Below are positions 21,562 to 22,601 of a stretch of 33,023 nucleotides of DNA, piece by piece. The stretch's first letter is position 1. The number at the start of each line of letters is the position of its first letter. The notes beneath the pieces were generated by a model. It searched no databases, had not been told where the DNA came from, and was given only the letters and a program-made list of their open reading frames with translations. The stretch lies in NCBI GenBank assembly GCA_051942165.1, contig JAVECS010000037.1, positions 1 to 33,023 of the forward strand. The letters are read 5' to 3'. The position numbers and the translations under genes are program-made. The DNA comes from Circinaria calcarea. Lineage: Eukaryota.

Positions 21562-22601
21562 CTAAATGACTCTAGAGATAATAAAACTCGCGTTCGCACT
21601 CCTCCCGGATTCTCCATTTAAATGGCATGTGAGGACTGGTCTCAGCTTTTGGACTATACGCTGGGTTTGGATCTCGGCAGGCTTTATCATGTGTCAGTTA
21701 CCGGCCTTTGCAATCTCAATTATAAGAAGAGATTCGCTATTTACCGGATAGGCCATCGTCTTGATGGAGTGGGTGCTTCGTGTCAGTACGAAGGCCCCGG
21801 GCCTCATACGACTAACAATGTCAAGGAGAATGTTTTCCTTTTCTTTCGTCGTCGCCCCGACCGCAGCGTTGAAGTAGACAACATCGTGCTCGTGGAGGCC
21901 CTGTGATGCTTCCTTGATGTCGCCCACTTCAAACGTGCAGTCTTCCGAACCACAGAGGGCGTCGAGTACTTTTTTGCTCATCTCGAGACGCTCAGGAAGT
22001 ATCTCCAAGCTATGAATTCGGACCCGTGTGCCATGTTTCTGAGCCCAGCAAGTCACCCAGATGCTGGTTTCCGGCATGGCGCCAGATCCCAGAATGGCTA
22101 TGGATTCAGGAGCTCGGCCCATGACTGATTGGAGCCCTGCCCACTCGGTCTTCAGGTAATACTCGTAGAACTCATGAAGTGGAGTTGTGGTAAAGATCTT
22201 CCATGCTACGGATGAGTCGTCAGCCGTGCAGAATTTCATTGGACTTACTCAAACATACCCTCTACGGCATCCTTTGCAGCTGCTACTCTCTCTGCCCAAG
22301 TCACTTCTAAGGCTCCCTCGCATTCTCCCATGACATATCTAATGTCCGGCATGAGCCCCACGATCTTCGGATGCTTGAGGATTGTTTTTTCGAGCTCAAT
22401 ATCCAGAGTCGTGAAGGCGATGACGTCATAGAAACCGGCCCAAAAAGGAACGACTTGGTCGGTTTTCTCTGGCGTATCGAGAGGGCACAGTGCTTTCGCA
22501 CACTTGATGTTTTCCACCATCTTGCGCACGTAGACTTGTGCTTCACTCTCCAAGTCTCGGCCATGAGGCGCCTCGAGCGTGGAATCTACGTGTGGAACCA
22601 T
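21562..22601 (-). CDS. Nicotianamine-synthase-like SAM-dependent enzyme (aminocarboxypropyl transferase or possible azetidine-forming enzyme), ~307 aa
   Basis: Exons 22601-22259, 22205-21745, 21681-21562. NAS-like blocks GECEGALE, IAILGSGAMPETS (cf. VAFIGSGPLPLTS) and DVVYFNAAVG..KEKENILLDIVSRMRPGAFVLTRSTHSIKTMAYP (cf. DVVFLAALVG..EK..L..M.PG..L..RSA.G.R.FLYP). Confidence 0.85.

What the first reader, a model, noticed from the sequence alone, without database searches (positions are those of the whole stretch)
21562..22601. Divergent nicotianamine-synthase-like enzyme alongside two other aminocarboxypropyl donors
Seen: NAS-like SAM-binding and C-terminal blocks, but the plant/fungal FPYYxNY-type segment reads TPLHEFYEYY and GSGPLP reads GSGAMP. 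Known: NAS makes azetidine-2-carboxylate (Aze) and chains aminocarboxypropyl (ACP) units from SAM; CntL does a single ACP transfer in staphylopine/pseudopaline; AzeJ/VioH cyclise SAM to free Aze. Inference: the cluster has three potential ACP-transfer catalysts. One testable model is that this enzyme makes only Aze (or one ACP adduct) and the two PLP enzymes extend it using O-acetylhomoserine, giving a split hybrid route to a nicotianamine-like backbone.
Basis: partly seen in the sequence, partly recalled or inferred. Interest (0 to 1): 0.82.

Follow-up and report, generated by a model that had tools for sequence, protein, structure and literature searches.

The report
Divergent fungal nicotianamine-synthase paralogue in cluster
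A fungal gene encodes an unusual relative of the enzyme that makes the metal chelator nicotianamine, and it sits among genes that could build and export an amino-acid-derived compound that has not been described.

Summary
Window 22601-21562 (minus strand) is an intact three-exon fungal gene for a 307-aa protein of the nicotianamine synthase family (PF03059, E 1.2e-22). The quoted motifs TPLHEFYEYY and GSGAMP are present.

The protein is not a canonical NAS. It belongs to a small ascomycete clade (100/99 support, long stem) that is 28-32% identical to the Neurospora-type NAS. Two genomes carry both types. The catalytic Glu/Tyr pair and the SAM-binding glycines are kept. Nine positions invariant in the clade differ from the family majority.

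An AlphaFold model of a 72%-identical orthologue matches archaeal NAS (Z 28.4) and CntL (Z 25.8), well above ordinary methyltransferases (Z about 17).

The neighbours are two paralogous Fub7/O-acetylhomoserine-sulfhydrylase-type PLP enzymes, a MetX-type homoserine O-acetyltransferase, an FAD amine oxidase, two oxygenases, an ATP-grasp ligase and ABC and MFS transporters.

Best reading: a SAM-dependent aminocarboxypropyl transferase with a changed acceptor site, working in an undescribed biosynthetic cluster. The "Aze only, then PLP extension" model is neither shown nor excluded. Cluster conservation in distant fungi could not be tested.

The parts
21562..22601 (-). NAS-like gene, 307 aa. Exon 1 is 22601-22259, intron 1 is 22258-22206, exon 2 is 22205-21745, intron 2 is 21744-21682, and exon 3 is 21681-21562 including the stop.
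   Evidence: splice model. (PF03059, E 1.2e-22). (72% identity over 307/307 residues to P0001). (orthologues share the exon-3 C-terminus).
15220..16880 (+). PLP enzyme 1, Cys/Met-metabolism family, Fub7/O-acetylhomoserine sulfhydrylase type. It has several exons. The PLP lysine motif HSASKW is present.
   Evidence: PF01053 on three ORF pieces. (best PDB hit Fub7 8erb, E 4.1e-38 for the last exon). (about 63% identical to PLP enzyme 2 over the two large pieces).
23150..24650 (+). PLP enzyme 2, a paralogue of PLP enzyme 1, transcribed divergently from the NAS-like gene. The motif HSATKW is present.
   Evidence: PF01053, E 4.3e-99. (Fub7 8erb E 4.2e-104; 8ovh homocysteine/cysteine synthase E 5.3e-100). 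(TIGR01326, E 6.2e-118).
28371..29791 (-). Homoserine O-acetyltransferase (MetX/Met2/Fub5 type). The exact 5' end was not determined.
   Evidence: PDB: CefG acetyltransferase E 2.8e-51, then 12 homoserine O-acetyltransferase sequences. (TIGR01392 MetX, E 1.3e-69). (Abhydrolase_1).
16976..18592 (-). FAD-dependent amine oxidoreductase (DAO family). The true start is probably downstream of 18433.
   Evidence: PF01266, E 6.2e-56. (weak matches to aminophosphonate oxidoreductase, MnmC C-terminal domain, pipecolate oxidase and glycine oxidase families). (the relative X1 lacks 18434-19110).
19922..21080 (+). 2-oxoglutarate/Fe(II) oxygenase (DIOX_N plus 2OG-FeII_Oxy), two exons.
   Evidence: PF14226 E 4.2e-10; PF03171 E 9e-20..
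26499..27778 (+). CmcJ/NvfI-family oxidoreductase, two ORF pieces.
   Evidence: NF041278, E 4.6e-08 and 2.5e-19; each piece is below the whole-protein cut-off. No Pfam hit.
10321..14689 (+). Full-size ABC transporter (two ABC_membrane plus ABC_tran units), several exons.
7503..9545 (-). ATP-grasp ligase, transcribed divergently from the ABC transporter.
   Evidence: ATP-grasp_4, Dala_Dala_lig_C, ATPgrasp_N..
30303..32146 (+). Possible MFS transporter. The evidence is weak.
   Evidence: PF07690, E 2.2e-06, 27.3 bits, below the cut-off of 33.4.
25019..26038 (-). Decayed fragment of a pyruvate-dehydrogenase E1-alpha-like gene with broken frames. Probably not part of the pathway.
   Evidence: PF00676, E 2.5e-24, on one 130-aa piece. 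(frame breaks).

Best explanation
The gene encodes a SAM-dependent 3-amino-3-carboxypropyl (ACP) transferase of the NAS/CntL fold. It belongs to a distinct paralogous subfamily that is not the housekeeping nicotianamine synthase. Proposed mechanism, inferred by homology: SAM binds the Rossmann domain at the GSG loop and the acidic E182. The conserved Glu99/Tyr128 pair deprotonates an amine nucleophile. That amine attacks C-gamma of SAM and methylthioadenosine is released. The segment next to the catalytic Tyr and several other positions conserved across the family are replaced in every clade member. The acceptor, and perhaps the number of rounds, is therefore expected to differ from canonical NAS. 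The enzyme most likely works inside a biosynthetic gene cluster. In that cluster a MetX-type acetyltransferase would make O-acetylhomoserine, and two Fub7-like PLP enzymes would carry out gamma-replacements with it. An FAD amine oxidase, a 2OG oxygenase and a CmcJ/NvfI oxygenase would tailor the product. An ATP-grasp enzyme may add an amide bond, and ABC/MFS transporters would export the product, a polar amino-acid-derived compound that may chelate metals. What is shown: family membership, fold (on an orthologue), conserved catalytic residues, clade separation and gene neighbourhood. What is inferred: the reaction, the acceptor, the pathway order and the product.
For: Family and fold. PF03059 E 1.2e-22. 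A clade profile finds MtNAS at E 7e-06 and a family profile finds it at E 1e-33, with CntL at 1.4e-15. The AF2 model of orthologue P0001 has mean pLDDT 93.6. It matches MtNAS at Z 28.4 (rmsd 2.4 A, 262 residues aligned) and CntL at Z 25.8 (257 aligned). The best ordinary methyltransferase scores Z 17.6 (Foldseek gives the same order).

Catalytic residues. E99 aligns with MtNAS E81, which reads Q in the E81Q entries. Y128 aligns with MtNAS Y107. Both are invariant in the 8 clade rows and are held by 73/73 and 70/73 of the other family rows. Their role in deprotonating the acceptor amine is stated in PMC10491745 (passages). AtNAS1 E77Q and Y106F are inactive (PMC10248798, passages). G154, G156, R257 and Y267 are also kept.

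Distinct subfamily. The window protein plus 9 fungal proteins form one clade with 100/99 support on a stem of 1.47, apart from 15 canonical fungal NAS including N. crassa (FastTree on 106 rows agrees). Identity to canonical NAS is 28-32%. In the library-wide profile search the score falls from 336 to 147 bits after the clade. Chaetomium sp. MPI-SDFR-AT-0129 and Achaetomium macrosporum each have one protein of each type.

Clade-invariant replacements of family-majority residues: P>T43, V>Y58, N>F127, L>E160, A>R187, A>N227, R>K263, V>G294, A>S304. In addition Tyr>His125 and a 4-5 residue C-terminal insertion.

Neighbourhood. A relative about 98% identical (run X1) keeps the whole 20-kb stretch collinear.
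Against: No biochemical or expression evidence exists. No RNA data could be laid on the gene. The structure is of an orthologue, not the window protein, and I had no coordinates, so no pocket was measured. The roles assigned to the replaced residues rest on their position in the alignment only. The cluster is inferred from adjacency in one genome plus a near-identical relative. Conservation in distant fungi could not be tested. No cluster-specific transcription factor and no shared promoter word was found. In another relative (run X3) the 2OG and NAS-like part is heavily mutated while the ABC, PLP1 and DAO part is intact, so these parts may not be one functional unit. The clade keeps the Glu equivalent to AtNAS1 E73 and the VG of the VGMD insertion. 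Seebach et al. link both features to nicotianamine-forming enzymes, so ordinary NA synthesis is not excluded.
Confidence: 0.55

Rival explanations
1. It is a true nicotianamine synthase (three SAM to NA) dedicated to a pathway that tailors NA into a mugineic-acid-like secreted metallophore. The FAD amine oxidase would replace the plant aminotransferase step and the 2OG oxygenases would hydroxylate as plant IDS2/IDS3 do. MetX and the two O-acetylhomoserine sulfhydrylase-type enzymes would only resupply homocysteine and methionine for the heavy SAM demand.
For: E95, E99 and Y128 correspond to AtNAS1 E73, E77 and Y106, all essential for NA formation (PMC10248798 passages). MtNAS and CntL lack the E73 equivalent and the four-residue VGxx insertion, and the clade has both. 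The PLP enzymes match the O-acetylhomoserine sulfhydrylase family TIGR01326 at E 6.2e-118 and score nearly as well against yeast-type homocysteine synthase as against Fub7 (338 against 351.5 bits). The 2OG oxygenase has the DIOX_N plus 2OG-FeII_Oxy architecture. The plant pathway steps are recalled, not taken from a call.
Against: The FPYYxNY and GSGPLPLTS motifs, held by nearly all NA-forming family members sampled, are changed in every clade member. The D of VGMD is T. Two genomes already have a canonical NAS. No reductase equivalent to the plant deoxymugineic acid synthase was seen in the 54 ORFs scanned. Two PLP paralogues that have diverged to about 63% identity are more than a supply role needs.
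Confidence: 0.15
2. It is a SAM lyase that only cyclises the ACP group to free azetidine-2-carboxylate. The Fub7-like PLP enzymes and/or the ATP-grasp ligase then extend or ligate that product.
For: Eukaryotic NAS already form an azetidine ring, and the timing and residues of that step are unknown (PMC11794875 and PMC10491745, passages). The clade changes the post-beta4 segment from Y-[LVMI]-A-A-L-V-G to Y-F-N-A-x-V-G. This places Phe-Asn where AzeJ has its conserved P-F-N (motif from PMC11794875). The topological equivalence is my inference and was not superposed. An ATP-grasp ligase is nearby.
Against: The AzeJ signatures PFNxxGN and RxxYYxxC are absent from the window protein. The fold is the two-domain NAS/CntL type. 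The Glu/Tyr pair used for an external acceptor amine is retained. No obvious self-protection gene against the proline mimic Aze was seen among the scanned ORFs.
Confidence: 0.12
3. The neighbourhood is coincidental. The gene is a stand-alone diverged NAS paralogue for intracellular metal homeostasis. The PLP, MetX and oxidase genes belong to sulfur and amino-acid metabolism or to another pathway.
For: Cluster conservation outside near-identical relatives was not testable. No shared promoter 7-mer was found and no pathway regulator was seen. The relative X3 keeps the ABC, PLP1 and DAO genes but has a decayed 2OG/NAS part.
Against: Eleven enzyme and transporter genes typical of secondary metabolism lie within 25 kb, including duplicated PLP genes on both sides of the NAS-like gene, one of them sharing its promoter region. 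The clade has a patchy distribution across Sordariomycetes, Leotiomycetes and Chaetothyriales that does not follow the species tree, as accessory cluster genes often do.
Confidence: 0.12
4. It is an ordinary methyltransferase or a catalytically dead relic.
For: There is a weak Pfam match to Methyltransf_31 (E 1.5e-05, 25.1 bits, below the cut-off of 27). The Rossmann domain is shared with methyltransferases.
Against: NAS and CntL score far above methyltransferases (Z 28.4 and 25.8 against at most 17.6). The NAS-specific N-terminal helical domain is modelled and aligned from residue 17. The catalytic Glu/Tyr are kept, and 66 of 307 positions are invariant across 8 clade rows from distant fungi. 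The reading frame is intact with clean introns.
Confidence: 0.04

Closest known systems
Canonical fungal/moss 'class III' nicotianamine synthase (e.g. Neurospora crassa NAS, P0239)
   Same: Same Pfam family (PF03059). Same length class, a core-NAS domain only. The residues equivalent to AtNAS1 E73, E77 and Y106 are shared, as are the GxG loop, R257, Y267 and the VGxx insertion.
   Different: Only 28-32% identity. It forms a separate clade with 100/99 support. The motifs change as follows: FPYYxNY to xP[IL]HxFY, GSGPLPLTS to GSG[AP][ML]PET, VYxAALVG to VY[FL]NAxVG, and LRT to [IL]KT. There is a 4-5 residue C-terminal insertion. It coexists with a canonical NAS in two genomes, and its genomic setting looks like a biosynthetic cluster.
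Archaeal thermonicotianamine synthase MtNAS (PDB 3FPE, 3FPJ)
   Same: Best structural match: Z 28.4, rmsd 2.4 A, 262 of 265 residues aligned. E81 and Y107 are conserved as E99 and Y128.
   Different: 16-18% identity. MtNAS lacks the E73-equivalent Glu and the VGxx insertion. It uses glutamate as starter and performs two ACP transfers (PMC10491745, passages).
Bacterial CntL (staphylopine/pseudopaline pathway; PDB 7C9M, 7C7M)
   Same: Second-best structural match: Z 25.8, 257 residues aligned. Its glycine loop GSGAYPMT resembles the clade's GSGAMPET more than the NAS GSGPLPLT does. It is an enzyme dedicated to a metallophore gene cluster and performs a single ACP transfer (PMC10491745).
   Different: No CntM-type opine dehydrogenase or CntK racemase was found among the 54 ORFs scanned. 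CntL lacks the eukaryote-type insertion. The Pseudogymnoascus copper-responsive CntL/CntM-like cluster described in PMC12113139 (section 18 read) has a different gene set.
Fusaric acid (FUB) cluster module Fub5/Fub7, and LolC/CndF-type gamma-replacement enzymes
   Same: A homoserine O-acetyltransferase together with Fub7-like PLP enzyme(s) inside a fungal cluster. Fub7 is the best solved relative of both PLP genes. The functions of Fub5, LolC and CndF are recalled, not taken from a call.
   Different: There is no PKS or NRPS-like gene in the window. There are two PLP paralogues, and a NAS-family enzyme is present. No searched paper mentions that combination.
AzeJ/VioH azetidine-2-carboxylate synthases
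   Same: They use SAM, release MTA, and are class-I methyltransferase-derived. Phe-Asn follows strand beta4, as in the clade's YFNA (motif from PMC11794875).
   Different: They are single-domain enzymes of a different family. The signatures PFNxxGN and RxxYYxxC are absent here. Neither enzyme is among the listed structural matches.

Membership tests
NAS/NAS-like family (Pfam PF03059; NAS/CntL fold) | Significant match to the family profile | tested here: met
   Exon 2 matches PF03059 at 81.1 bits, E 1.2e-22, cut-off 27.1. All 22 relatives carry PF03059.
NAS/NAS-like family (Pfam PF03059; NAS/CntL fold) | Two-domain architecture: an N-terminal helical domain plus a Rossmann domain | tested here: met
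   The AF2 model of orthologue P0001 (72% identical; pLDDT 93.6) aligns to MtNAS over model residues 17-307 at Z 28.4 and to CntL at Z 25.8. This was tested on the orthologue, not on the window protein.
NAS/NAS-like family (Pfam PF03059; NAS/CntL fold) | Catalytic Glu (MtNAS E81) and Tyr (MtNAS Y107), and the glycine-rich SAM loop | tested here: met
   E99, Y128 and G154-x-G156 are invariant in the 8 clade rows.
NAS/NAS-like family (Pfam PF03059; NAS/CntL fold) | ACP transfer from SAM with release of MTA | not testable with these tools
   This needs an enzyme assay.
Canonical nicotianamine synthase (NA from three SAM; class III fungal/moss) | Groups with characterised NA-forming enzymes in a phylogeny | tested here: not met
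   In the IQ-TREE analysis the window clade (10 rows) is separated from 15 canonical fungal NAS including N. crassa with 100/99 support. The FastTree run agrees.
Canonical nicotianamine synthase (NA from three SAM; class III fungal/moss) | Conserved FPYYxNY and GSGPLPLTS motifs | tested here: not met
   The motifs read TPLHEFY and GSGAMPETS. N>F127 (64/73 other rows have N), L>E160 (65/73) and A>N227 (70/73).
Canonical nicotianamine synthase (NA from three SAM; class III fungal/moss) | Residues linked to NA-forming enzymes: AtNAS1 E73 and the VGMD motif (PMC10248798) | tested here: inconclusive
   The E73 equivalent E95 is kept. VGMD reads VG[ASTR]T, so the insertion is present but Met and Asp are replaced.
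CntL-type opine-metallophore system | Adjacent CntM opine dehydrogenase (with or without a CntK racemase) | tested here: not met
   No such Pfam family was found among the 54 of 78 ORFs of at least 90 aa that were scanned. Short exons could be missed.
AzeJ/VioH AZE synthases | Signature motifs FY (N-terminal gate), PFNxxGN and RxxYYxxC (PMC11794875) | tested here: not met
   A regex search on the spliced window protein found no PFN..GN and no R..YY, only FNAAVG at residue 226.
AzeJ/VioH AZE synthases | Structural similarity to AzeJ/VioH above that to other methyltransferase-fold enzymes | tested here: inconclusive
   Neither enzyme is among the rows listed by Foldseek or VIA-align. Absence from a list does not exclude similarity.
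Fungal biosynthetic gene cluster | Co-location conserved in distant species, or co-expression | not testable with these tools
   Only a relative about 98% identical (run X1) could be compared. No RNA holder was listed and the metagenome locus scans were empty.

The most novel reading that the evidence does not exclude
The cluster makes a fungal nicotianamine- or mugineic-acid-like metallophore by a dual-donor route. The same N-(3-amino-3-carboxypropyl) linkage would be formed from two different activated donors: SAM by the NAS paralogue, and O-acetylhomoserine by the two Fub7/LolC-like PLP enzymes, fed by a cluster-encoded MetX. An FAD amine oxidase and two oxygenases would then perform tailoring like that of phytosiderophores, and ABC/MFS transporters would export the product. 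This would be a non-NRPS, non-NIS metallophore pathway in fungi and a natural hybrid of two ACP-transfer chemistries.
Probability: 0.15. Interest if true: 0.85.

Novelty: new variant of a known kind. Interest (0 to 1): 0.62.

Why it matters
Public databases label members of this clade 'nicotianamine synthase 2/3/4' by homology. The data here indicate a separate subfamily with a remodelled substrate site, embedded in a cluster with no PKS or NRPS gene, so standard cluster finders would probably miss it.

If the enzyme transfers ACP to a new acceptor, or stops at Aze, it would help identify which residues control acceptor choice, iteration and ring closure in NAS enzymes. The papers I read describe these questions as unresolved (PMC11794875, PMC10491745).

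If the product is a secreted chelator, it would add a new class to fungal metal acquisition. Several of the fungi carrying the clade are plant, insect or human associates (Fusarium, Beauveria, Fonsecaea, Microdochium).

I found no paper in the searchable library that links a NAS-family gene with Fub7/CndF/LolC-type enzymes or with an ATP-grasp enzyme.

Tried and rejected
RNA evidence. No RNA holder was listed for window 15000-24900. The four runs laid were all DNA contigs, so the introns and expression are unverified by reads.

Whole genome. None is held for this window, so I could not look for a second NAS, Met2 or Met17 copy.

Synteny in other fungi. Two scans of metagenome contigs, one with the clade alignment A2 and one with P0018, returned no confirmed locus. 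The other locus collections are viral or prokaryotic.

Single-sequence phmmer of P0001 against the PDB gave no NAS hit at E up to 10. The top rows were chance matches to ribonucleotide reductase R2. Only profiles reached MtNAS and CntL.

AzeJ and VioH do not appear in the listed Foldseek or VIA-align rows.

Shared promoter signal. No 7-mer occurs in 5 or more of 6 putative promoter regions, and there are only scattered CGG..CCG sites.

Exon 1 and exon 3 alone give no meaningful Pfam hit.

Earlier findings of this scan: nothing by place or by sequence. One unrelated bacterial NAS note was found by words.

Literature. Searches found no description of this clade or cluster. The MtNAS structure paper (Dreyfus 2009) is not held, so residue roles are taken from passages of PMC10491745 and PMC10248798.

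ESM Atlas. All nearest clusters are NAS-family, with no new lead.

I considered a complex prediction between the NAS-like protein and the PLP enzymes and did not run it. Adjacency alone is not sufficient reason, and the spliced proteins cannot be submitted.
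Full report
**What is at the coordinates.** The window is eukaryotic and looks fungal: reading frames are interrupted by short introns with GTAAGT/GTATGT ... CTGAC ... YAG signals. The finding's coordinates are exactly a gene on the minus strand, with the ATG at 22601 and the stop ending at 21562. I derived a three-exon model: exon 1 is 22601-22259, intron 1 is 22258-22206 (53 nt), exon 2 is 22205-21745, intron 2 is 21744-21682 (63 nt), and exon 3 is 21681-21562. It gives a 307-aa protein.

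The model is supported by colinearity with database orthologues. The protein aligns 1-307 to 1-307 without gaps with the Calycina marina protein P0001 at 72% identity. The exon-3 C-terminus (...NASFIISRV) is shared with the Calycina, Fonsecaea, Beauveria, Chaetomium and Achaetomium proteins. The deposited Fusarium models (P0003-P0005) read through intron 2 into another frame and carry a spurious tail. No RNA data could be laid on the gene.

**Observation check.** Exon 2 hits Pfam PF03059 (nicotianamine synthase) at E 1.2e-22. They differ from the family consensus FPYYxNY and GSGPLPLTS seen in an 80-sequence family alignment.

**Position in the family.**
- A word-indexed search with exon 2 and with P0001 found only a small set of close relatives, 8 and 22 proteins respectively. 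Named ones come from Calycina marina, Glarea lozoyensis, Fonsecaea erecta, Fusarium lateritium, F. fujikuroi, F. xylarioides, F. sp. NRRL 25303, F. oxysporum (fragments), Beauveria bassiana, Chaetomium sp. MPI-SDFR-AT-0129 and Achaetomium macrosporum.
- An exhaustive profile search with 5 clade members against 1.84 billion representatives found 582 family members at E<=1e-3, 264 at E<=1e-10 and 22 at E<=1e-30. The score drops from 336 to 147 bits after the last full-length clade member. Two further clade members are from Xylariomycetidae sp. FL2044 and Microdochium nivale.
- The window protein is 28-32% identical to canonical fungal NAS.
- I built a careful IQ-TREE tree of 44 rows that I selected: the window protein, 9 clade rows, 4 nearest outliers, 15 canonical fungal NAS including N. 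crassa P0239, and 15 other representatives, one of which is a named Pseudonocardiales protein. Two Fusarium rows were trimmed of their misread tails. The clade is one branch with 100/99 support on a stem of 1.47 changes per site, and the canonical fungal NAS lie on the other side.
- A FastTree run on 106 rows agrees. Those rows were the clade rows, all representatives P0030-P0169 of 250-480 aa, and 8 canonical NAS picks. Shorter and longer hits were left out.
- Chaetomium sp. MPI-SDFR-AT-0129 (P0010 and P0190) and Achaetomium macrosporum (P0011 and P0178) each have one protein of each type. The clade is therefore a paralogue, not the fungal NAS orthologue.
- Its distribution over Sordariomycetes, Leotiomycetes and Chaetothyriales is patchy and does not follow the species tree.

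**Conserved and changed residues.** A clade profile reaches the archaeal enzyme MtNAS (3FPE) at E 7e-06. A family profile reaches MtNAS at 1e-33 and SaCntL at 1.4e-15.

In these alignments E99 is MtNAS E81 (Q in the E81Q entries) and Y128 is MtNAS Y107. A review states that these two residues deprotonate the acceptor amine (PMC10491745, passages). Seebach et al. show that the equivalent AtNAS1 mutants E77Q and Y106F are inactive, as are E73Q and deletion of 206-VGMD-209 (PMC10248798, passages).

The clade keeps E95 (equivalent to E73), E99, Y128, G154, G156, R257 and Y267. Of 307 positions, 66 are invariant in 8 clade rows. Of these, 27 agree with the residue held by at least 60% of the 73 other family rows, and 9 replace it: P>T43, V>Y58, N>F127, L>E160, A>R187, A>N227, R>K263, V>G294 and A>S304.

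Further changes are visible in the alignment:
- The second Tyr of FPYY is His125.
- VGMD reads VG[ASTR]T.
- The C-terminal HPYxxVVNS block carries a 4-5 residue insertion.

The segment next to the catalytic Tyr differs in each enzyme with a different acceptor: PYYxNY in NAS, YFYPRY in MtNAS, GYFDNI in CntL, and P[IL]HxFY here. This is why I infer a changed acceptor site. That inference is not a measurement, because no model coordinates were available to me.

**Structure.** Spliced proteins cannot be submitted, so I folded the orthologue P0001 with the 80-row alignment. Mean pLDDT is 93.6 and pTM is 0.90. Foldseek ranks MtNAS first (E 1.6e-15, TM 0.84 on the target) and CntL second. VIA-align gives MtNAS Z 28.4 (rmsd 2.4 A, 262 aligned), CntL Z 25.8 (257 aligned), and ordinary methyltransferases at most 17.6. 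The whole two-domain NAS/CntL architecture is therefore predicted, including the N-terminal helical domain that Pfam does not detect in exon 1. AzeJ and VioH are not among the listed matches. Of the three AzeJ sequence signatures (FY, PFNxxGN, RxxYYxxC; PMC11794875, passages), the last two are absent from the window protein. One partial parallel is worth testing: after strand beta4 the clade reads Y-F-N-A where canonical NAS read Y-[LVMI]-A-A and AzeJ has P-F-N.

**Surroundings.** I scanned 54 of the 78 stop-to-stop ORFs of at least 90 aa, and later 14 and 9 selected pieces. From 7.5 to 32 kb the window holds:
- an ATP-grasp ligase (7503-9545, minus strand);
- a full-size ABC transporter (10321-14689, plus strand);
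- PLP enzyme 1 (about 15220-16880, plus strand);
- a DAO-family FAD amine oxidoreductase (16976-18592, minus strand);
- a 2OG/Fe(II) oxygenase (about 19922-21080, plus strand);
- the NAS-like gene;
- PLP enzyme 2 (about 23150-24650, plus strand, sharing a promoter region of about 550 bp with the NAS-like gene);
- a decayed pyruvate-dehydrogenase E1-alpha fragment (25019-26038, minus strand);
- a CmcJ/NvfI-family oxidoreductase (about 26499-27778, plus strand);
- a MetX-type homoserine O-acetyltransferase (28371-29791, minus strand);
- a weak MFS match (30303 onward).

The two PLP genes are paralogues, about 63% identical over the two large exons. Both keep the PLP lysine motif. Their best solved relative is Fub7 of fusaric acid biosynthesis (E 4.2e-104 and 4.1e-38), closely followed by O-acetylhomoserine sulfhydrylases. 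NCBIfam places PLP2 in 'O-acetylhomoserine aminocarboxypropyltransferase/cysteine synthase'. No PKS, NRPS, terpene cyclase, CntM-type dehydrogenase or pathway regulator was seen.

**Evidence on the cluster as a unit.** A relative about 98% identical (run X1) carries the full 20 kb collinearly, apart from two intergenic indels. This is too close to count as independent support. Another relative (run X3) keeps 8934-18433 at about 98%, but 19507-22310 (the 2OG oxygenase and the NAS-like gene) survives only in patches with 15-20% differences. In that run, 357 of 433 listed changes are C>T or G>A, the pattern of repeat-induced point mutation. That argues these two genes are dispensable, and it weakens the case that all the genes form one obligatory unit. 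Synteny in distant fungi could not be examined. No shared promoter word was found.

**How it most likely works.** The best-supported reading (confidence 0.55) is a SAM-dependent ACP transferase that releases MTA, uses the Glu99/Tyr128 pair on an amine nucleophile, and has an acceptor site different from canonical NAS. It would act within a cluster that also uses O-acetylhomoserine-dependent gamma-replacement, oxidative tailoring, perhaps ATP-grasp ligation, and export.

The rivals are:
- a true NA synthase feeding a mugineic-acid-like pathway, with the PLP and MetX genes as a methionine/SAM supply (0.15);
- a coincidental neighbourhood (0.12);
- a methyltransferase or dead enzyme (0.04).

The sequence data cannot separate single transfer, iterative transfer and cyclisation. 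The papers I read state that the determinants of ring closure in NAS are unknown (PMC11794875, PMC10491745).

**Comparison with what is known, and novelty.** The protein is a member of the NAS/NAS-like family; profile, fold and catalytic residues were all tested and met. It fails two tests for canonical nicotianamine synthase, phylogenetic grouping and the conserved motifs, and one test is inconclusive (E73 kept, VGMD altered). It lacks the CntM partner of CntL systems and the AzeJ signatures.

A copper-responsive CntL/CntM-like cluster proposed in Pseudogymnoascus destructans (PMC12113139, section 18 read) has a different gene set. Eight searches of the paper library for this clade or gene combination found no description of it. 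Subscription journals and supplements are not covered by those searches.

I rate it a new variant of a known kind: an unstudied NAS subfamily in an unstudied cluster that has no PKS or NRPS gene. Interest is 0.62. It is a good genome-mining and enzymology lead, but without functional data.

Noticed in passing
window 19247-19506: A 259-bp stretch is absent from the relatives X1 and X7, where 6 nt stand in its place. It has 39-nt terminal inverted repeats (19256-19294 and 19468-19506, 97% complementary). It looks like a MITE-type insertion in the shared promoter region between the FAD oxidase and the 2OG oxygenase.
   Followed up: partly
window 18434-19110: A 677-bp AT-rich stretch is missing in the relatives X1 and X3. 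It overlaps the first 50 or so codons of the long DAO ORF. The oxidase probably starts downstream of 18433, since its Pfam domain begins at ORF residue 110.
   Followed up: partly
window 19507-22310 compared with run X3 (organism B): In that relative the 2OG oxygenase and NAS-like genes are collinear but 15-20% diverged, almost entirely by C>T and G>A changes (357 of 433 listed). The adjacent ABC, PLP1 and DAO genes are about 98% identical. This is RIP-like decay of part of the cluster.
   Followed up: partly
window 25019-26038 (-): A fragment of a pyruvate dehydrogenase E1-alpha-like gene (PF00676, E 2.5e-24) has frame breaks and degenerate conserved residues. It is probably a pseudogene lying between PLP enzyme 2 and the CmcJ/NvfI gene.
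   Followed up: no
database proteins P0003, P0004, P0005 (Fusarium); P0002, P0006, P0009: The deposited Fusarium gene models miss intron 2. They end in a wrong-frame tail (...SPHMPAKWRAWEEREREFYHF) or are truncated. The Glarea model lacks internal segments. The same wrong frame is open in the window.
   Followed up: yes
window 320-2476 (+): A 718-aa open frame rich in Q, P, G, S and T has no Pfam or NCBIfam match. A RING-finger gene (3056-3787, minus strand) and an ankyrin-repeat gene (6710-7102, plus strand) follow it. These are probably outside the cluster.
   Followed up: no
protein P0059 (record named Quercus suber) with unnamed P0062, P0094: A small, long-branched group is the nearest outlier to the window clade together with Lojkania enalia P0030. 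The single plant-labelled member sits among fungal sequences, so it may be a contaminant or a gene transfer.
   Followed up: no
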